From: a virus
Taxonomy: Duplodnaviria > Heunggongvirae > Uroviricota > Caudoviricetes
Length of the DNA stretch: 25,188 nt
IMG/VR virus record: IMGVR_UViG_2547132281_000006
Span: 1 to 25,188 of that record
Reading direction: 5' to 3' (one strand)
A program made the position numbers and the translations under genes. Shown here one piece after another: positions 1,047-21,018 of this stretch; the first letter of the stretch is position 1; the number at the start of each line of letters is the position of its first letter. Below the pieces are notes generated by a model that was not told where the DNA came from, ran no database searches, and saw nothing but the letters and a program-made list of their open reading frames with translations.

Positions 1047-1631
1047 TTACTCCCTGACAGGGTTCGTAGGCCACTCAATATCAGGTGCAGTTGATGTATC
1101 AACACGGTTCAGCAACACCCGATACTTTTTCCAGGCTTCCAGCAATGAGGTTTCTTCCTCCGTTGCAATTTCCAGATCTGCAGCATCCTGAAGCGGCGCA
1201 ATATGCTCACTGGCTACCTGCATCAGGTTGTTTTTTGTTTCTTCCGCCTCCCGGATCCGGAACAGTTTTTCTGCTTCTGCATCTTTCACCCAGGTTGTGC
1301 CGTTCCACTTCTGAAACTCCCCTTCCGGCGATAACCAGGTAACATTTTCCGGTAATAAGCCGAGTTCAGAAATAAATAACGCGTCGCCGGAAGCTACGTC
1401 ATAAACCGTTTTACCCCGATGATCTTCAACGAGATGCCACGATGCCTCATCACTGTTGAAAACAGCCACAAAGCCAGCCGGAATATCTGGCGGTGCAATA
1501 TCGGTACTGTTTGCTGGCAGACCTGTATGAGGCGGAATATATGCGTCACCTTCACCAATAAATTCATTAGTTCCGGCCAGCAGATTATAAATTTTTATGG
1601 TCCGTGCTTGTTCACTCATTCTGAATGCCAT
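1047..1631 (-). CDS. tfa: Tail fibre assembly protein (lambda Tfa family)
   Basis: 194-aa ORF with typical Tfa N-terminus ([36 protein letters not shown]) and conserved C-terminal block. Confidence 0.85.
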
Positions 1632-14180: not shown

Positions 14181-14214
14181 GGAGTTTACTCACATCTGAC
14201 AAAATCAATATAAA

Positions 14215-14236
14215 CAGCCCCTCCGGAGAGGGGCTG
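14215..14236 (-). terminator. GC-rich hairpin downstream of the tRNA cluster
   Basis: 9-bp stem CAGCCCCTC / GAGGGGCTG with 4-nt loop; on the minus strand followed by TTTATATTGATTTTG. Confidence 0.4.
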
Positions 14237-14471
14237 GAGAGTGGCGCTATGTGCCATTGCATGGTGCCGGGTGCCTCCCGGTGAATTCAGTACCAGCACC
14301 TGAATCCGCGATTATCCCATATACCTACTCGCTGATTGCCCCTCCGCACAGGGGGATTCACCATGCCAGTTTCTTTTAACAAACTCCCCGCAAACCAGAC
14401 AACAGTCAACCGCCTAAATTGTGAGACATTTAAAAAAAAGGCCCACAAAAGCGAGCCAGGGAAAATAAGTG

Positions 14472-14548
14472 TGGCGCGTTGTACTGGATTCGAACCAGTG
14501 ACCGATTGCTTAGAAGGCAATTGCTCTGTCCGGCTGAGCTAACAACGC
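14472..14548 (-). tRNA. tRNA-Arg (anticodon TCT)
   Basis: Reverse complement folds as a cloverleaf: acceptor GCGTTGT/ACAACGC, D-arm GCTC..GAGC, anticodon loop CTTCTAA, T-arm ACTGG-TTCGAAT-CCAGT, encoded CCA. Confidence 0.85.
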
Positions 14549-14561
14549 ATGATGCAGATAA

Positions 14562-14638
14562 TGGACCGCCATCGGGGACTTGAACCCCGCGCAACCAGCT
14601 TCGAAGGCTGGCGCTCTTTCCTGATGAGCTAATGGCGG
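14562..14638 (-). tRNA. tRNA-Arg (anticodon TCG)
   Basis: Acceptor CCGCCAT/ATGGCGG, D-arm GCTC..GAGC, anticodon stem CCAGC/GCTGG with loop CTTCGAA, T-arm CGGGG-TTCAAGT-CCCCG, encoded CCA. Confidence 0.8.
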
Positions 14639-14645
14639 TATGTGA

Positions 14646-14721
14646 TGGTGGCCCTTGCTGGATTTGAACCAGCGACCTGGCGATTATGAGTCGCTCGCTC
14701 TCACCACTGAGCTAAAGGGCC
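14646..14721 (-). tRNA. tRNA with CAT anticodon (Ile2/lysidine type, ileX/ileZ-like, or Met)
   Basis: Sequence GGCCCTTTAGCTCAGTGGTGAGAGCGAGCGACTCATAATCGCCAGGTCGCTGGTTCAAATCCAGCAAGGGCCACCA closely resembles recalled E. coli ileX. Confidence 0.8.
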
Positions 14722-16394: not shown

Positions 16395-17216
16395 CTATCG
16401 CGTTACCCTCTTTAACTGCCGCTCCGCCCATGCCTCTTCAATGTCAAACCGAACCACCAACGTATCGTAAAAGCGTTTCACTGATTTTTTCCACGTATCA
16501 AGCGTGATAGCACTCGTCACTTTGCATATGGCATTAAATGCCTCCGTTGATGGCAGCCTTTCACAGCCACGACCACCACAACGCTGGCAGTCTCTGATAA
16601 CAGGCATACCACGTTTTACCGACTCTTCACGATGAATGGCGACACCACGCCCACGGCAATCCTTACAGGCGGTGGAAACCTCACCCTTTCCGCCACACTC
16701 CGGACAGGCAACTTTTACCACCTCCCTGACTTTTTTCCATTCTTCCCAGTAAGACGAATACACACCTTTCGTACACTTTGCCCATACCGGCGGCTTACCA
16801 TCCGGATACTGGACCTTGTTTGTAAAAACCTCGCTTTCAATAAATTTTTTTCCGTGACAGCAGGGGCACTGTTTTTTGCTCGCCGCGCTACGGGCATAAT
16901 CTTCAAACGCATACGAAGCCATAATACGCATCACTGCCGGTTTTATTTCTGCCGGGAGTTTTCTTAACGCCGCCACGCGATCACACCGACTGAGTGCATA
17001 TTCTGTCAGCAATTCTGTTGCCCGCTCTCTGTCATTCATACTAATGCCCATTTTACCAAGGAACGCAGAAAACCCCATCTCAGCCCGATTCTGTGTCATG
17101 CCCTGCGCGGCCATCACATCAGTGATACTCAGCGCATCTTTCGACGTTGAGGCCGATGCATCAGTCAGGCCGGGGGATTTTGGGGAGTAGTATTTCGGTA
17201 AATCTTCCAGTTTCAT
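16395..17216 (-). CDS. Q: Late-gene antiterminator Q (lambda-type, enlarged zinc-binding region)
   Basis: 273 aa; N-terminus (YYSPKSP...TDVMAAQGM), middle (ASYAFEDYARSAA) and C-terminus (RFYDTLVV...KRVTR) parallel recalled lambda Q; four CxxC motifs; start overlaps the rusA stop (ATGA). Confidence 0.8.
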   Translation of the reverse strand: MKLEDLPKYYSPKSPGLTDASASTSKDALSITDVMAAQGMTQNRAEMGFSAFLGKMGISMNDRERATELLTEYALSRCDRVAALRKLPAEIKPAVMRIMASYAFEDYARSAASKKQCPCCHGKKFIESEVFTNKVQYPDGKPPVWAKCTKGVYSSYWEEWKKVREVVKVACPECGGKGEVSTACKDCRGRGVAIHREESVKRGMPVIRDCQRCGGRGCERLPSTEAFNAICKVTSAITLDTWKKSVKRFYDTLVVRFDIEEAWAERQLKRVTR

Positions 17217-17587
17217 TTTTTGACCTGCCCTTCAAGCATTATGGGGTAAATCTTCACCCCCAGACGTCCACCAGATACTGGCTGACCACGAACGATATTG
17301 ATTTCATCAAACTGCTCATCGTCCATTAACACTCCCGCATGCGTCAGCGCATCCAGCGGTGCTTTCAGGATATTGTCCAGGTCGCGACGACGCTTATCCG
17401 GTGGCTCTGCAATCACCTTTATCGCCAGCCTTCCGGACAGGCTTAATTTCAGCCGCTGCTGGCGAACAATAAGCGCCACTGCCCGGCGATAACGCTCCCC
17501 GGCTTTTGATACAAAATATGTGCTGCCACGGCGTCGCCAGTAAGTGTTCACCGTCGGCGGGTAAGGTAAAACCAAATCTATGAGCAT
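17213..17587 (-). CDS. rusA: Holliday junction resolvase RusA
   Basis: 124 aa; LPYPPTVNTYW N-terminus and DKRRRDLDNILKAPLDALTHAGVLMDDEQF catalytic block typical of RusA. Confidence 0.85.
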   Translation of the reverse strand: MLIDLVLPYPPTVNTYWRRRGSTYFVSKAGERYRRAVALIVRQQRLKLSLSGRLAIKVIAEPPDKRRRDLDNILKAPLDALTHAGVLMDDEQFDEINIVRGQPVSGGRLGVKIYPIMLEGQVKK

Positions 17588-17831
17588 CAGTCACCTCTTT
17601 TAACAGAGCCTGCATTTTTTCAACAGCATCAGGGGTGTCTTTATCCAGCCAACGGAAAATTTTCTGGGTATTACGGGCCAGGGCTTCCGGATGGCTGTCG
17701 TCATACAGTTCCGGGAACGTCATTCCCAGCTCGAAATACGCTTTGGTAATTTTCGCAGCCGGTACTTTTTCGCCGTCCGGATGCGCCCAGGCATTCATTG
17801 CCATGCGGATGTGTTCATGCTTGATTTTCAT
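17394..17831 (-). CDS. Hypothetical protein downstream of the Cro-like gene (position analogous to ydaT of Rac); 3' end overlaps rusA
   Basis: 145-aa ORF; first ~100 aa look protein-like; last ~45 aa overlap rusA in another frame (possible lost stop or frameshift). Confidence 0.4.
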   Translation of the reverse strand: MKIKHEHIRMAMNAWAHPDGEKVPAAKITKAYFELGMTFPELYDDSHPEALARNTQKIFRWLDKDTPDAVEKMQALLKEVTDAHRFGFTLPADGEHLLATPWQHIFCIKSRGALSPGSGAYCSPAAAEIKPVRKAGDKGDCRATG

Positions 17832-18197: not shown

Positions 18198-18698
18198 ATG
18201 AAAAGAAAATCCCTGTCAGAGATCGACCTGCAAGCCGCCCAGAGACTGAAAGAAATCTGGACGGCGAAAAAAAATCAACTAGGGTTAACCCAAGAGCGTG
18301 CGGCAGAAATTCTGGGATTTTCGACACAGGGAGCTGTAAGCCATTATCTAAATGGTCAGACACCTTTAAATCTTGAGGCTGTTATCAAGTTCGCAGGGTT
18401 GCTGCAAGTTCCTCCCGAGTCAATCAGACCAGATATGGCCGAGTTGTTACAAATTGTAAGGATGTATCCCCAAGAATCTGGGGAGGACAATGTTGTCACT
18501 ATATCTGCAGATATGGAACAATCGGAAAACGAACTTCCGTTTAATATAGACCCCATGGAGCGGGATTTGCTCCAGACGTTCAGGGCTTTCCCCAAAGAAG
18601 ATAAAGAGAAAATGCTTAAGGAAATGAAGGAGAAAAAAGAATCAATTGAAGAAATCGTTGCGCGATGGCTAGCTGCGCAAAAGGGTCGTCGCGCCTAA
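18198..18698 (+). CDS. DicA-like prophage repressor (HTH, no LexA-type peptidase domain)
   Basis: 166 aa; HTH LGLTQERAAEILGFSTQGAVSHYLNG; C-terminal region resembles recalled DicA; no S24 peptidase motifs. Confidence 0.75.
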   Translation: MKRKSLSEIDLQAAQRLKEIWTAKKNQLGLTQERAAEILGFSTQGAVSHYLNGQTPLNLEAVIKFAGLLQVPPESIRPDMAELLQIVRMYPQESGEDNVVTISADMEQSENELPFNIDPMERDLLQTFRAFPKEDKEKMLKEMKEKKESIEEIVARWLAAQKGRRA

Positions 18699-18715
18699 TC
18701 TGAGGAGGTAAAAAC

Positions 18716-18907
18716 ATGAGTACAGCCCTTTCCCCGATAATTTCTGAATTTGAAACAGTCGAACAAGAAAACAGCTATAACGAATGGTTGCGAACCAAAG
18801 TGGCAGCAAGCCTCTCAGATCCCCGTCCTGCAATTCCACATGACGAAGTAATGGCTGAAATGGAAAACCTTATTGCTCAATTAGCTGCAACGAACAGGAG
18901 TGAGTAA
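18716..18907 (+). CDS. Type II antitoxin (ParD-like) paired with the downstream ParE/RelE toxin
   Basis: 63 aa; GAGGAGG SD; stop overlaps the toxin start (TAATG); acidic C-terminus. Confidence 0.65.
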   Translation: MSTALSPIISEFETVEQENSYNEWLRTKVAASLSDPRPAIPHDEVMAEMENLIAQLAATNRSE

Positions 18908-19197
18908 TGCTGCCCATTTTATGGCTACCTTCTGCACGTGATGATTTACGTCAGATCGTAGCCTATATTGCTAAGGAAAACCCTCCCGCTGCACGTAGAC
19001 TAAAAATACGCATTGAAACATCAGTTTTGTCACTTACTGAACACCCTTATCTGTACCCACCGAGCGAAAGAGTTCCAAGTCTTCGTGAGATAGTGACTCA
19101 TCCTAACTACATAATACTTTACCGAGTAACAGCATCTAACATCGAGATCGTAAATGTAGTTCACTCACGAAGACAGTATCCAAACAAAACCTGTTAA
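18907..19197 (+). CDS. ParE/RelE-family type II toxin
   Basis: 96 aa; LPSARDDL...YIILYRV...IEIVNVVHSRRQY pattern typical of ParE/RelE toxins. Confidence 0.8.
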   Translation: MLPILWLPSARDDLRQIVAYIAKENPPAARRLKIRIETSVLSLTEHPYLYPPSERVPSLREIVTHPNYIILYRVTASNIEIVNVVHSRRQYPNKTC

Positions 19198-19210
19198 TCC
19201 TTCCTGTCAA

Positions 19211-19235
19211 CAACCACCTTCGGGTGGTTTTTTTC
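19211..19235 (+). terminator. Intrinsic terminator ending the repressor/toxin-antitoxin operon
   Basis: AACCACC-TTCG-GGTGGTT followed by TTTTTTT. Confidence 0.7.
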
Positions 19236-19245
19236 TTGCCACGAT

Positions 19246-19285
19246 AATAGCACTGCTATTTACATAATTAAATAGTAGTGGTATT
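19246..19285. promoter_or_regulatory. Second operator pair with the same motif and spacing (OL-like), upstream of the ydfA-dicF-dicB operon
   Basis: AATAGCACTGCTATT (19246-19260, perfect palindrome) and AATAGTAGTGGTATT (19271-19285), again 25 bp apart. Confidence 0.5.
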
Positions 19286-19466
19286 GTTCATTCATCAACC
19301 CACCCCGCCCCACAGAACGCCAGGCAATACTTCGAGTTACCCGGCAGTGGTCAGGGGTTAAGTAGCCAGCCCGAGGCGTAAGAACATGACGGCAGGGTTC
19401 AACTTTAATAACTATGCAGCAGGTTTTTGTTCCGCTACCCCGGCGTTAAGGGGAAATGAGGTCAGC

Positions 19467-19619
19467 ATGGATACTATCGAGCTTGGCAACAACGAATCTC
19501 TGGTATGCGGCGTGTTTCCCAACCAGGACGGCACGTTTACCGCGATGACATATACCAGAAGCAAAACGTTTAAAACTGAAGCTGGCGCGCGTCGCTGGTT
19601 AACCAGAAACACTGACTGA
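19467..19619 (+). CDS. YdfA-like small protein
   Basis: 50 aa from internal ATG 19467 (GAGG SD); MDTIELGNNESLVCGVFPNQDGTFTAMTYTRSKTFKTE resembles recalled Qin YdfA. Confidence 0.6.
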   Translation: MDTIELGNNESLVCGVFPNQDGTFTAMTYTRSKTFKTEAGARRWLTRNTD

Positions 19620-19630
19620 TGAGGTTGACG

Positions 19631-20032
19631 ATGGAATTTAAAGATTTACCAGTACCATTCCAGGAAATGGCATCGAATGTGGTTCGCTCTCAACTGGCGA
19701 CTCTTGACCTGAGTACTGTAGAAAAGGAAACCATCGATACTATATCCGGTAACGTGCGTCGTGCCTTTATAGGTCTGTATGAAGAGAAGCGCCTATTCGG
19801 CGGACAGAATTCGCCTGAAAACAAGAATCAAGCAAATGATGAGAAGCTGAAACACATTATCGCCTTACTTTTGGAAGACGCAAAACGTCTACAGCAACTG
19901 GAACCAAATGCAGGCACAGAGGCCCGCATTTGGATTGCCATGAAATCACTCAAATGTGAAAGCAGTGATTATTTCAAAACAACAATTAAAACTACTCAAC
20001 TTTCGGGAGAGCTACTGAAGAAATTGCCATAA
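19631..20032 (+). CDS. Hypothetical ~133-aa protein (unknown family)
   Basis: ORF with GAGG SD before ATG 19631 (alternative ATG 19619 overlaps the ydfA-like stop as TGATG); helical-looking; 3' end overlaps the convergent minus-strand ORF by 41 bp. Confidence 0.5.
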   Translation: MEFKDLPVPFQEMASNVVRSQLATLDLSTVEKETIDTISGNVRRAFIGLYEEKRLFGGQNSPENKNQANDEKLKHIIALLLEDAKRLQQLEPNAGTEARIWIAMKSLKCESSDYFKTTIKTTQLSGELLKKLP

Positions 20033-20273
20033 GAGCATGGTCTTTCTCTTGTTCTGCAAGATGAGCATTAATACCTGGTATGGTTTTTTCAAATTTATCT
20101 ATCTGTTGAATAACAACTTCGCGGTATACGTTTGTTTTTGTACCACCAAGCGCAGCCGTTAATGCAGAAAGCATATTTAGTATCATATCAGTGCGATATG
20201 AAAGAATCCTGATAGCTTCATCTTGTTTTTCAATAATAGATTGCAGGGCCTCAATTTGCTTTTTATCCATTTC
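19992..20273 (-). CDS. Hypothetical 93-aa coiled-coil-like protein, antisense within the early-left operon
   Basis: ATG at 20273 preceded by strong SD GGAGGG; AT-rich; sequence MDKKQIEALQSIIEKQDEAIRILSYRTDMILNMLSALTAAL. Confidence 0.45.
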   Translation of the reverse strand, partial: EMDKKQIEALQSIIEKQDEAIRILSYRTDMILNMLSALTAALGGTKTNVYREVVIQQIDKFEKTIPGINAHLAEQEKDHALMAISSVALPKVE

Positions 20274-20602
20274 ACCCTCCTGAGGGTTGGTAATTAAGGA
20301 GTTCTCCACGGGTCAGGTGGAGTGCGTGCGCCGGACACGGGTGAACATCCGGCACTGACAGTTTACTGAAAGGATATGTCCCTGAAAAGTCAGGGCATAA
20401 AGCGAAAGCGCACGGCGAAATTGGTCTCTCTGTACGGTGTCGTTAAATTTAGTTCGACCGTGCGCTTCCGGTTGTGGCACTCCGCGAAATGGCGCGGCGG
20501 TAAGTATGGCGGGGTTATTCCTTCCCCCGTTGAGGACACCGGGTTGTCAGGTTGACCATACGCTTAAGTGACAACTCCGCTGCAACGCCCTCTGTTATCA
20601 AT

Positions 20603-20655
20603 TTTCTGGTGACTTTTGGCGGTATCAGTTTTACTCCGTGACTGCTCTGCCGCCC
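20603..20655 (+). ncRNA. dicF: DicF small RNA (ftsZ-targeting sRNA of Qin-type prophages)
   Basis: TTTCTGGTGACTTTTGGCGGTATCAGTTTTACTCCGTGACTGCTCTGCCGCCC followed by TTTTT matches recalled K-12 DicF with ~2 substitutions; lies immediately upstream of the dicB-like gene. Confidence 0.8.
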
Positions 20656-20829
20656 TTTTTAAAGTGAATTTTGTGATGTGGTGAATGCGGCTGAGCGCAC
20701 GCGGAACAGTTAAAACCAAAAACAGTGTTATGGGTGGATTCTCTGTATCCGGCGTTAATTGTTAACTGGTTAACGTCACCTGGAGGCACCAGGCACCGCA
20801 TCACAAAATTCATTGTTGAGGACGCGATA

Positions 20830-21018
20830 ATGGAAACGTTATTACCAAACGTTAATACGTCTGAAGGTTGTTTTGATATTGGTGTTCTGCTCAGTAACCG
20901 GGAGTTTACGGAAGATGCCATTAAGATGAGAAAATATGAACCTTATCTTCTCAATGATAATTCCATACTTTCCAGAATTGCCCTTCTTGAACTTGGTATT
21001 ATCGGAGAACAGCAGTGA
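20830..21018 (+). CDS. dicB: DicB-like cell-division inhibitor
   Basis: 62 aa from ATG 20830 (GAGGA SD); METLLPNVNTSEGCFDIGV...FTEDAI matches the recalled K-12 DicB N-terminal half. Confidence 0.75.
   Translation: METLLPNVNTSEGCFDIGVLLSNREFTEDAIKMRKYEPYLLNDNSILSRIALLELGIIGEQQ

What the first reader, a model, noticed from the sequence alone, without database searches (positions are those of the whole stretch)
19619..20273. Convergent, 3'-overlapping pair of unknown genes between ydfA and dicF
Seen: a ~133-aa plus-strand ORF (GAGG SD) and a 93-aa minus-strand ORF (strong GGAGGG SD) converge and overlap by 41 bp at their 3' ends. The minus-strand gene is antisense to the early-left operon and AT-rich. 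Neither resembles anything I recognise. Inference: a convergent overlapping arrangement implies mutual antisense regulation; candidate accessory or defence/anti-defence cassette in the slot K-12 Qin fills with ydfB/ydfC.
Basis: partly seen in the sequence, partly recalled or inferred. Interest (0 to 1): 0.6.

Follow-up and report, generated by a model that had tools for sequence, protein, structure and literature searches.

The report
Swappable antisense small-gene slot in prophage
The two converging unknown genes are real protein-coding genes, but they are not a matched pair: they are one allele of a swap-in slot, found in many enterobacterial prophages, where different small genes sit backwards inside the early lytic operon behind one conserved structured leader; what the proteins do is still unknown.

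Summary
A 133-aa plus-strand ORF (19631-20032) and a 92-aa minus-strand ORF (20270-19992) converge and share 41 bp, between ydfA and dicF. Both are true genes: against Salmonella homologs, p92 has dN/dS 0.08-0.25 and substitutions of 9/0/28 at codon positions 1/2/3.

Neither matches Pfam, NCBIfam, PADLOC, PDB or fold libraries. RefSeq and PHROGs already list them as hypothetical.

The pair is not a co-adapted cassette:
- p133 is a conserved N-module ("MEFKDLP...") fused to a variable C-module.
- That C-module occurs alone and next to three different antisense genes.
- p92 relatives occur with three different partners, or none, including in P2-like prophages.

Every antisense ORF starts at the same SD/ATG. 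It lies behind a conserved leader of two hairpins plus an anti-SD:SD helix that covaries perfectly. In viral contigs this leader precedes at least 10 ORF families, nearly all unrelated (p92 and the 91-aa type are distant homologs), or no ORF at all, as in K-12 Qin.

My best reading is a moron-like cargo slot, expressed against the repressed dicBF-type operon and mutually interfering with it. Expression and biochemical function remain untested. A defence role is unsupported.

The parts
19467..19619 (+). ydfA homolog (DUF1391). Its stop TGA (19617-19619) and the following GAGG form the conserved junction that precedes p133.
   Evidence: Pfam PF07151 at 9e-28. PGAP annotates a 50-aa DUF1391 protein in identical loci. 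92% identical to K-12 ydfA DNA.
19631..20032 (+). p133, a 133-aa protein of unknown function (WP_001339605.1, phrog_1363), part of the early-left operon.
   Evidence: ORF. 259 homolog clusters. PHROG 9.5e-45. AF2 model all-helical with mean pLDDT 60. No Pfam, NCBIfam or PADLOC hit.
19631..19816 (+). N-module of p133 (aa 1-62, MEFKDLP...). It is the conserved left anchor of the variable slot.
   Evidence: The same module is fused to at least 6 different C-terminal regions, giving proteins of 106-212 aa. tblastn finds it in Stx-converting and other lambdoid phages. Two helices with pLDDT about 80.
19835..20032 (+). C-module A of p133 (aa 69-133; core KHIIALLLEDAKRLQQLEPNAGTEARIW).
   Evidence: It exists as a free-standing 48-71-aa ORF in Salmonella and other loci (L004, L009, L052, L098). 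dN/dS is 0.18-0.55. It is paired there with p92, a 74-aa ORF or a GhoS-like ORF.
19992..20270 (-). p92, a 92-aa protein of unknown function (WP_000358771.1, phrog_18692), antisense to the operon. It is the 'cargo' of this allele.
   Evidence: dN/dS is 0.08-0.25 at dS 0.67-0.89. Codon-position differences are 9/0/28. The family is restricted to Enterobacteriaceae prophages. AF2 gives three helices with pLDDT 68.5. No hit in Foldseek PDB or BFVD. GC is 36.9%.
19992..20032 (.). 41-bp overlap of the two 3' ends. p92 wobble positions lie opposite p133 second codon positions, and vice versa.
   Evidence: Coordinates; frame relation read from the sequence. The same 41-bp overlap occurs in Salmonella L004/L009 and in P2-like L016/L017. 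The p92 C-terminus (ISSVALP) is conserved even where there is no partner (L018).
20275..20281 (-). Shine-Dalgarno AGGAGGG of p92. It is the 3' arm of the anti-SD helix.
   Evidence: Sequence. Invariant GGAG in all 24 leaders.
20297..20301 (-). Anti-SD CUCCU, predicted to pair with the SD.
   Evidence: RNAalifold helix. 98.3% of cells paired. The pair at columns 65-86 is UA in 12 and AU in 11 sequences. There are 18 CTCCA..TGGAG and 14 CTCCT..AGGAG unique leaders and no mixed ones.
20304..20322 (-). Leader hairpin hp1 (CUCCAC-7 nt-GUGGAG).
   Evidence: Compensatory variants CCCGAC/GTCGGG and CACACG/CGTGTG. The wobble variants CTCCAT/GTGGAG and ACAYGT/GCGTGT pair only on the p92-sense strand.
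20329..20354 (-). Leader hairpin hp2 (10 bp including 3-4 G.U pairs, 6-nt loop), the most conserved element. It would be the 5'-terminal stem if transcription starts at about 20354.
   Evidence: Invariant across lambdoid, Salmonella and P2-like loci. 95.4% of cells paired. Only 6 bp can form on the plus strand.
20360..20388 (-). Weak sigma-70-like candidate promoter: TTTTCA (20388-20383), 17 nt, TAAACT (20365-20360).
   Evidence: My own reading of the sequence. It matches 8 of 12 positions, below the scan tool's threshold, and the tool reports no minus-strand site in 20285-20600. Inferred, not shown.
20285..20603 (.). Conserved non-coding stretch between the slot and dicF, the 'long UTR' of the dicBF operon. 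It holds the leader and a boxB-like hairpin at 20381-20396.
   Evidence: 93.6% identical to K-12. Matched in 4564 of 5426 E. coli genomes, in 64 phage records, and partly in P2-like loci.
20604..20655 (+). dicF sRNA gene, downstream in the operon.
   Evidence: Rfam RF00039, 75.8 bits.
20830..21018 (+). dicB, a cell-division inhibitor gene downstream in the operon.
   Evidence: Pfam PF05358, 3.7e-38.

Best explanation
SHOWN.
- p133 and p92 are both genuine protein-coding genes.
- They occupy a recombination-bounded, polymorphic slot in the early-left (ydfA...dicF-dicB-exo-xis-int) operon of a lambdoid prophage.
- The left anchor is the conserved N-module of the plus-strand gene. The right anchor is a conserved structured leader: hairpins hp2 and hp1, plus an anti-SD:SD helix. 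This leader ends in a fixed SD/ATG from which a variable 'cargo' ORF is read backwards.
- Between the anchors, C-modules and cargos are exchanged independently. The window carries C-module A plus the cargo p92.
- p92 (with its distant 91-aa relatives) is a three-helix, slightly acidic, non-membrane protein family confined to enterobacterial prophages. It has moved together with the leader into P2-like prophages.
- The 3' overlap arises because whatever plus-strand ORF lies upstream reads into the complement of the conserved p92 C-terminal codons until it meets a stop.

INFERRED (mechanism).
- p92 is a moron-like gene, transcribed from a weak promoter just upstream of hp2 while the prophage repressor keeps the early operon off.
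- The 5' hairpins stabilise its mRNA, and the anti-SD helix throttles its translation.
- The early operon must transcribe through the whole p92 unit to reach dicF/dicB/exo/xis/int. The two transcription units therefore oppose each other through RNA polymerase collision and fully complementary RNA. Cargo transcription would damp leaky read-through into the toxic dicF/dicB genes, and operon induction would shut the cargo off.
- The protein most likely serves the lysogen (host modulation or exclusion of other phages). Its biochemical activity is unknown.

The confidence of 0.5 is a blend: about 0.85 for the shown anatomy and evolution, and about 0.35 for the inferred expression and interference mechanism.
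For: Coding status: dN/dS 0.08-0.25 for p92 and 0.18-0.55 for C-module A. Codon-position differences are 9/0/28, and an indel is in frame.

Slot architecture: the homology break with K-12 falls exactly at the p92 SD (20285) and at the ydfA end. The minus ORFs of four E. coli alleles all start at the same SD/ATG.

Diversity behind the leader: an IMG/VR scan with the hp2 pattern returned 120 loci. Of 121 leader instances, 53 are followed by an SD plus an ORF, and these ORFs belong to at least 10 families (92, 91, 73/74, 77, 64, 69, 61/80, 94 and 22/57 aa). About 40 are K-12-like, with no ORF.

Partners: they are nearly always MEFKDLP proteins with different C-modules, and the overlaps are 0-44 bp.

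Independent assortment: C-module A occurs with a 74-aa cargo (L052) and with a GhoS-like cargo (L098). C-module B occurs with the 91-aa and the 73-aa cargos. p92 homologs occur with an HTH 171-aa protein, with a 109-aa protein, or with none.

Mobility: p92 plus about 250 nt of leader and UTR is present in P2-like (Cox/Int/C4 RNA) prophages, again antisense to the early operon.

Leader structure: 90.8% of cells pair, against about 40% when the partners are slid. The covariation score is 0.145 against 0.068 in shuffles (0 of 500 reach it). The anti-SD/SD covariation is perfect in 32 unique leaders. G.U pairs exist only on the p92-sense strand.

Moron-like traits: GC 36.9% against 49.6%, and presence/absence polymorphism.

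Read-through geometry: no terminator-like site on the plus strand between p133 and dicF. ydfABC-dicF-dicB is described as one operon repressed by DicA (PMC5069750).

Homology between p92 and the 91-aa type: hhalign probability 96.8%, E 2.3e-10.
Against: - There is no expression data of any kind. No TSS, RNA-seq, Ribo-seq or proteomic evidence was found.
- The candidate promoter matches only 8 of 12 positions, is not reported by the scan tool, and is not conserved in the non-lambdoid contexts.
- No terminator-like site follows p92.
- Single-sequence folding of the leader is no more stable than shuffles (z -0.67).
- The leader also occurs without any ORF in more than half of the sampled loci, including K-12. 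It may therefore have a function of its own on the operon (plus) strand.
- The covariation rests on a few lineages, and the shuffle control does not correct for relatedness.
- No functional clue comes from Pfam, NCBIfam, PADLOC, PDB sequence search or Foldseek. 'Serves the lysogen' is therefore an analogy with morons, not a result.
- p92 gave no tblastn hit in 50,697 deposited phage genomes. It may be confined to cryptic prophages.
Confidence: 0.5

Rival explanations
1. The two genes form a cognate two-protein system (toxin-antitoxin or effector-immunity). The variable C-module of the plus-strand protein would be neutralised by the matching antisense-encoded protein, much as polymorphic toxins carry variable C-terminal domains with a linked immunity gene.
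For: A conserved N-module, a variable C-module and an adjacent variable small ORF resemble polymorphic toxin loci. The C-module A plus p92 arrangement, with the identical 41-bp overlap, is kept between E. coli and Salmonella at dS of about 0.7-0.9. One alternative cargo reaches the Pfam GhoS (type V antitoxin) threshold, 21.2 against 21 bits. In L024 the p92 body is lost but the codons that complete the partner ORF are retained.
Against: The pairing is not exclusive. C-module A is found with p92, with a 74-aa ORF and with the GhoS-like ORF. C-module B is found with two unrelated cargos. p92 homologs occur with unrelated partners that share only the overlap-encoded tail, or with no partner at all (L007, L018). 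About 42 E. coli genomes keep C-module A without p92. There is no toxin or antitoxin domain; the RelB-like NCBIfam score of 15.9 is far below the cutoff of 50. Neither protein is hydrophobic.
Confidence: 0.12
2. The conserved hairpins are an element of the plus-strand operon RNA, for example processing or stability signals for releasing DicF or C4-type sRNAs from the long transcript. The antisense ORFs merely sit next to it. p92 would then be expressed from some other, possibly distant or induced, promoter, and the 'leader' idea would be wrong.
For: The element is far more widespread than any cargo: 4564 of 5426 genomes have it, against 124-168 with p92. It occurs without an ORF in K-12 and in about 60 of 121 viral-contig instances. 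It lies in the 'long untranslated region containing dicF' of an operon known to be processed by RNase E and RNase III (PMC5069750). The P2-like loci that carry it have a processed C4 RNA downstream. All Watson-Crick covariation is strand-symmetric. One variant (L013, G to A) gives a G.U pair only on the plus strand.
Against: On the plus strand hp2 shrinks from 10 to 6 bp and the consensus energy is weaker (-19.6 against -24.1 kcal/mol). The bona fide hp1 wobble variants pair only on the minus strand. The third helix involves the cargo's SD and covaries with it, and the element always ends at a fixed distance from the cargo ATG. In K. oxytoca (L018) a diverged copy precedes a p92 homolog outside any recognisable early operon.
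Confidence: 0.18
3. p92 is an induced (lytic-phase) counter-defence or host-takeover factor rather than a lysogen-expressed gene. It would be switched on from the leader only after induction or infection.
For: Early-left operons of lambdoid phages are rich in host-takeover and anti-restriction genes (general knowledge). SD sequestration suggests translation is held off until a signal arrives. The promoter is weak or unrecognisable.
Against: After induction the strong early operon transcribes straight through p92 in the opposite sense, which should suppress it rather than activate it (geometry). There is no similarity to known anti-defence proteins in Pfam or PHROGs. p92 is absent from 50,697 deposited phage genomes, which argues against a role needed for lytic growth.
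Confidence: 0.1
4. The 92-aa ORF is a chance open frame on the antisense strand, and only the plus-strand gene is real.
For: There is no functional annotation, and the ORF is short and AT-rich. No promoter or terminator is predicted.
Against: The frame stays open in homologs down to 40% identity in three genera, with an in-frame indel. Substitutions follow pos3 > pos1 > pos2 (9/0/28) and dN/dS is 0.08-0.25. A strong SD is conserved at fixed spacing. Only 41 of its 279 nt overlap the other gene, so it is not a shadow of p133.
Confidence: 0.02

Closest known systems
Prophage 'morons': independently transcribed accessory genes inserted between phage genes, such as lambda bor/lom and HK97 gp15 (named from my own knowledge).
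   Same: AT-rich compared with its surroundings (36.9% against 49.6% GC). Present or absent among otherwise near-identical prophages. Oriented independently of the surrounding operon. Small protein of no essential phage function. Has moved between unrelated phage types (lambdoid and P2-like).
   Different: No convincing promoter and no terminator could be found. The gene sits inside, and antisense to, a polycistronic early operon that must read through it. It shares one conserved structured leader and SD with at least 10 alternative ORF families. This looks like a fixed docking and expression site rather than a self-contained insert.
[quoted passage not shown] 2022, PMC9122126; seen, not read in detail).
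   Same: Conserved flanks bracket a highly variable set of cargo genes in temperate phages of E. coli. Cargo is exchanged by recombination at the flanks.
   Different: The location is different: the early operon next to cox or ydfA, not the P2 hotspots described there. The cargos are single ORFs of 60-95 aa. None matches any PADLOC model. No defence phenotype is known.
K-12 Qin dicBF operon (ydfA-ydfB-ydfC-dicF-dicB-ydfD; Balasubramanian et al. 2016, PMC5069750).
   Same: Same operon backbone. ydfA, the long UTR, dicF, dicB and DUF1482 are 82-94% identical.
   Different: K-12 has neither gene of the pair. p133 and p92 are not homologous to YdfB or YdfC (blastp E > 1). The window lacks ydfB and ydfC, and other prophages have both sets.
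Convergent type I toxin-antitoxin loci with 3'-overlapping transcripts, such as txpA/RatA and bsrG/SR4 of B. subtilis prophages (from my own knowledge).
   Same: Convergent units in a prophage whose RNAs are complementary at their 3' ends. There is potential for RNase III-dependent mutual control.
   Different: Both partners here are conserved soluble proteins. There is no small hydrophobic toxin (GRAVY -0.10 and -0.48) and no non-coding antitoxin RNA.
GhoS/GhoT type V toxin-antitoxin.
   Same: One alternative cargo in the same slot reaches the Pfam GhoS threshold.
   Different: p92 itself has no GhoS similarity. No GhoT-like membrane peptide lies next to any allele.

Membership tests
PHROG phrog_18692 (p92) and phrog_1363 (p133), both of unknown function | Full-length profile match | tested here: met
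   5.9e-63 over 1-92 of 92, and 9.5e-45 over 1-131 of 139. These families carry no functional information.
YdfB / YdfC (K-12 Qin slot occupants) | Sequence homology to YdfB (42 aa) or YdfC (72 aa) | tested here: not met
   Best blastp E-values are 1.7-7. ydfB and ydfC homologs co-occur with a sister pair in L012, L010 and L023.
Prophage moron | Base composition distinct from neighbouring phage genes | tested here: met
   p92 is 36.9% GC. The flanking UTR is 54.1% and the window 49.6%.
Prophage moron | Present or absent among otherwise homologous phages (dispensable insert) | tested here: met
   124 genomes have the full unit, while 4564 have the backbone. K-12 and about 40 of 121 viral-contig loci lack any cargo.
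Prophage moron | Own promoter | tested here: inconclusive
   The scan finds no minus-strand site with at least 9 of 12 matches in 20285-20600. TTTTCA-17-TAAACT, with 8 of 12 matches, is placed so that transcription would start at the base of hp2. No TSS data are available.
Prophage moron | Own terminator | tested here: not met
   No terminator-like site on the minus strand in 19100-20800.
Type II toxin-antitoxin pair | Recognisable toxin or antitoxin domain | tested here: not met
   No Pfam hit. The NCBIfam RelB-like score is 15.9 against a cutoff of 50. The real TA module of this window is PaaA2/ParE at 18716-19197.
Type II toxin-antitoxin pair | Strict co-inheritance of the two cognate genes | tested here: not met
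   C-module A is found with three different cargos. p92 is found with three other partners or none.
Type I toxin-antitoxin (convergent, 3'-overlapping) | Small hydrophobic toxin peptide plus a non-coding antisense RNA | tested here: not met
   Both ORFs are under protein-level selection. GRAVY is -0.10 and -0.48, with no transmembrane-like segment.
Known anti-phage defence systems (PADLOC-DB v2) | Profile match to any component | tested here: not met
   p92 has none. p133 has only HerA at E 0.022 and 11 bits. Eight alternative cargos and partners have none.
Known anti-phage defence systems | Protection phenotype against phage | not testable with these tools
   This needs a phage-challenge experiment.
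cis-encoded antisense / convergent-transcription regulation | Both strands are transcribed across the same DNA | not testable with these tools
   Geometry allows it: operon read-through is required to reach dicF/dicB, and no plus-strand terminator intervenes. No transcript data were found.
Structured 5' leader with SD sequestration | Conserved helices with covariation, one of which pairs the SD | tested here: met
   21 pairs with 90.8% of cells paired, against 37-49% when slid. The anti-SD pair is UA in 12 and AU in 11 sequences. There are 32 of 32 concordant unique leaders. Caveats: few lineages, and thermodynamic z is only -0.67.

The most novel reading that the evidence does not exclude
The conserved hp2-hp1-antiSD leader may be a portable docking and expression platform. 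Behind it, temperate phages of two unrelated architectures (lambdoid dicBF-type and P2-like) swap small single-gene cargos, at least 10 families including p92, read antisense to the early lytic operon. In the lysogen the platform would express a protective or host-modulating small protein. By convergent transcription and complementary RNA it would also act as a safety lock on the toxic downstream genes (dicF, dicB/kil). On induction the operon would override it. The cargos would then be a reservoir of uncharacterised exclusion, defence or regulatory mini-proteins.
Probability: 0.2. Interest if true: 0.7.

Novelty: new variant of a known kind. Interest (0 to 1): 0.48.

Why it matters
The dicBF-type operon sits in most E. 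coli genomes. It encodes toxic cell-division inhibitors and a known phage-protective protein, DicB, yet what keeps it silent, apart from DicA, is poorly understood.

If the structured leader really drives a swappable antisense gene inside that operon, two things follow. It would provide a built-in convergent brake on dicF/dicB. It would also provide a catalogue of at least ten families of 60-95-aa prophage proteins with no known function, which are obvious candidates for superinfection exclusion, defence or host modulation.

For annotation, the work shows three things. Both ORFs should be kept as genes. p133 is a modular fusion. The pair should not be treated as a functional unit.

Tried and rejected
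- Family searches (Pfam, NCBIfam, PADLOC, PHROGs) for both proteins gave only unknown-function PHROGs.
- A profile search of PDB sequences gave nothing below E 1.
- The AF2 model of p92 (pLDDT 68.5) had no match at E below 0.3 in Foldseek PDB or BFVD. The afdb50 library was unavailable.
- The AF2 model of p133 (pLDDT 60) was judged too poor for a fold search.
- Exhaustive HMMER against 1.84 billion representatives added three 40-45% relatives. Its hits to kinesin and ankyrin repeat proteins are spurious: multi-stretch sums on repeats, with Pfam showing unrelated domains.
- tblastn of p92 against 50,697 phage records gave no hit.
- Homology to YdfB/YdfC is rejected.
- The shared 29-aa 'tail' of the different p92 partners looked like a functional peptide at first. 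Codon inspection shows that most of it is the forced complement of the conserved p92 C-terminus, with only Y..K..IK similarity outside the overlap. I do not claim it as a motif.
- Rfam at gathering and at E up to 10 finds no known family for the leader on either strand.
- The type C 73-aa cargo is not related to p92 (hhalign E 0.14). The type B 91-aa cargo is related.
- The search for experimental transcription start sites failed. The Cappable-seq supplement is truncated and holds nothing near K-12 position 1,649,1xx. No paper cites the two WP accessions, and none links DUF1391 to prophages.
- A permissive hairpin scan that allowed A.C pairs produced noise and was discarded.
Full report
**1. 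Observation.**
- The window holds a plus-strand ORF at 19619..20032 and a minus-strand ORF at 20270..19992.
- The plus ORF is 133 aa from ATG 19631. That ATG follows GAGG (19621-19624) and gives the N-terminus MEFKDLP found in every homolog. The upstream ATG at 19619 overlaps the ydfA stop.
- The minus ORF has 92 codons, with GGAGGG four bases before its ATG.
- The two ORFs share 19992-20032, which is 41 bp. In this overlap the wobble positions of one gene face the second codon positions of the other (read from the sequence).
- DUF1391/ydfA lies immediately upstream and DicF lies at 20604-20655. DicB, DUF1482, an 823-aa exonuclease, xis and int follow.
- The description is therefore correct, apart from '93 aa'.

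**2. Both are genes.**
- The 1.3-kb stretch is full-length in 124 of 5426 complete E. coli genomes. RefSeq annotates both ORFs as hypothetical proteins, for example in EPEC E2348/69.
- Salmonella prophages carry 71-74% identical p92 homologs.
- Nei-Gojobori dN/dS is 0.08-0.25 at dS 0.67-0.89. The one indel is in frame.
- Differences by codon position are 9/0/28 for the closest pair, and pos3 > pos1 > pos2 throughout.
- The C-terminal half of p133 gives dN/dS 0.18-0.55.
- A chance ORF is excluded.

**3. No known function.**
- Pfam, NCBIfam and PADLOC give nothing significant. PHROGs places the proteins in unknown-function families.
- A profile search of PDB sequences gives no match. Foldseek against PDB and BFVD gives no match either.
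- AF2 predicts p92 as three helices (3-42, 48-59, 69-85; pLDDT 68.5). It predicts p133 as all-helical, with a confident two-helix N-module and a poorly defined C-half.
- Neither protein is hydrophobic.
- The p92 family, searched exhaustively, is confined to E. coli, Salmonella and Klebsiella. It has no tblastn hit in 50,697 phage genomes.

**4. The pair is modular, not a unit.**

The plus-strand partner:
- p133 is an N-module (aa 1-62) fused to C-module A (aa 69-133). PHROG hits split exactly there.
- The same N-module is fused to other C-terminal regions, giving proteins of 106-212 aa.
- C-module A is a free-standing 48-71-aa ORF in other loci.
- C-module A lies next to p92 (window, L004, L009), next to an unrelated 74-aa ORF (L052) and next to a GhoS-like 94-aa ORF (L098).

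The minus-strand gene:
- p92 homologs converge on a 171-aa HTH protein or a 109-aa protein in P2-like prophages (L016, L017, L020).
- They stand alone in L007 and L018.
- About 42 E. coli genomes keep C-module A while the body of p92 is replaced.

The overlap:
- Overlap lengths in sister alleles are 0-44 bp.
- The similarity among the tails of the different p92 partners is essentially the complement of the conserved p92 C-terminus.

**5. A polymorphic slot behind a conserved leader.**
- Homology with K-12 Qin stops at the end of ydfA and resumes at 20285, right at the p92 SD.
- In four E. coli alleles the minus ORF starts at the same SD/ATG. These are p92, a 91-aa ORF, a 73-aa ORF, and a 77-aa ORF found in phage Evi and in PPompW prophages.
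- The 91-aa type is a distant p92 homolog (hhalign 96.8%, E 2.3e-10). The 73-aa type is not.
Of 121 leader instances:
  - 53 have an SD plus an ORF directly behind the leader, falling into at least 10 families.
  - About 40 are K-12-like, with the leader abutting ydfC and no ORF.
  - About 20 have a disrupted hp1.
- L012 carries ydfA, ydfB and ydfC and also a pair. The pair therefore does not replace ydfB/ydfC. K-12 simply lacks it.

**6. The leader.**

Upstream of the ATG, on the p92-sense strand, lie three helices:
- hp2 (20354-20329; 10 bp including G.U pairs),
- hp1 (20322-20304),
- a helix pairing CUCCU (20301-20297) with the SD AGGAG (20281-20277).

Evidence for the structure:
- On 24 distinct leaders, 90.8% of cells pair, against 37-49% when the partners are slid. 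The covariation score exceeds all 500 shuffles.
- The anti-SD pair is U-A in 12 and A-U in 11 leaders. In 32 unique leaders the two sides always agree.
- hp1 has compensatory variants.
- Its wobble variants pair only on the minus strand. On the plus strand hp2 loses four pairs. This favours a minus-strand RNA.

Caveats:
- There are few independent lineages.
- Single-sequence stability is not above shuffles.
- Many leader copies have no ORF behind them.

Other points:
- About 250 nt of this region accompanies p92 in the P2-like prophages.
- No Rfam family matches.
- A weak promoter-like TTTTCA-17-TAAACT would start transcription at the base of hp2. The scan tool does not report it.

**7. Mechanism.**

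Shown:
- the anatomy described above,
- independent assortment of the two genes,
- selection on both proteins,
- a conserved leader whose third helix pairs the SD.

Inferred:
- p92 is a moron-like gene expressed from the leader in the lysogen.
- The early operon has no terminator before dicF and is one DicA-repressed unit in K-12 (PMC5069750). It must therefore transcribe through the whole p92 unit.
- The two would then interfere with each other through polymerase collision and complementary RNA.
- The protein's activity is unknown. A lysogen-benefit role is argued only by analogy.

**8. Comparison and novelty.**
- The closest concepts are prophage morons and phage cargo hotspots.
- It differs from them in three ways: the antisense position inside an operon, the fixed structured leader and SD shared by many single-ORF cargos, and the lack of any recognisable defence domain.
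- The genes themselves are already in RefSeq and PHROGs as hypothetical proteins.
- I found no description of the slot or the leader, but the searchable literature is incomplete.

**9. Verdict.**
- The pair as such is ordinary: two hypothetical prophage genes.
- The conserved leader with its swappable antisense cargos is the interesting result and is worth an experiment.

Noticed in passing
window 18198-19197 (+), terminator-like hairpin 19212-19229: This is a three-gene module: an HTH regulator (166 aa), PaaA2 (PF21217, 1e-21) and ParE (PF05016, 7e-18). It resembles the paaR2-paaA2-parE2 toxin-antitoxin system. It sits between the immunity region and ydfA and is followed by a strong terminator-like hairpin.
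   Followed up: partly
window 19251-19287: A 12-bp inverted repeat (19251-19280) overlaps a promoter-like site, TTTACA-17-TATTGT with a TG extension (19259-19287), just upstream of ydfA. It is a candidate operator and promoter of the early-left operon.
   Followed up: no
window 20285-20603: This 320-nt non-coding stretch (54% GC) is highly conserved. It includes a boxB-like hairpin (20381-20396) and the block ACTTACCGCCGCGCCATTTCGCGG. It is shared by 4564 of 5426 E. coli genomes, by 64 phage records and, in part, by P2-like prophages that lack dicF. What it does beyond holding the leader hairpins is unexplained.
   Followed up: partly
L065 / L098 (IMG/VR contigs), about 75-372 nt after the hp2 pattern: A 94-aa ORF (MAKFTVRIELRDS...) sits behind the same leader as an alternative cargo. 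It reaches the Pfam GhoS (type V antitoxin endoribonuclease) gathering score, 21.2 against 21 bits. It converges on a 48-aa C-module-A ORF, and no GhoT-like peptide is seen.
   Followed up: partly
L016 2526-2613 (-), L020 2373-2460 (-): The P2-like prophages that carry p92 homologs also encode a C4 antisense RNA (RF01695, 77 bits) about 0.9 kb further along the early operon, next to a 'Derepression' family gene. The layout parallels leader-then-dicF in the lambdoid loci.
   Followed up: no
window 16395-17831 (-): A YdaT-like ORF, RusA and the Q antiterminator follow one another directly, with no recognisable replication (O/P or DnaT/DnaC-like) genes in between. This suggests a defective prophage.
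   Followed up: no
window 1090-1288 (-), 14206-14395 (-), 14475-14721 (-): Rfam hits to IS009 RNA (225.7 bits) and sRNA STnc100 (132.4 bits), plus three tRNA genes, all in the late region of the prophage.
   Followed up: no
L024 (E. coli 2014C-4587) 1602-2500: In this allele the body of p92 is replaced by unrelated DNA, but the last ~14 codons of p92 (..MAISSVALQKAE) remain. The p133 homolog there is cut short by a frameshift (119 aa, ...DYLINHN*). It is a recombination scar inside the slot.
   Followed up: partly
L007 3361-3720 (+): In one Salmonella prophage a p92 homolog with a replaced C-terminus lies directly next to the repressor gene. It is preceded on the same strand by an unrelated 119-aa coiled-coil-like ORF, so this may be a two-gene antisense unit.
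   Followed up: no
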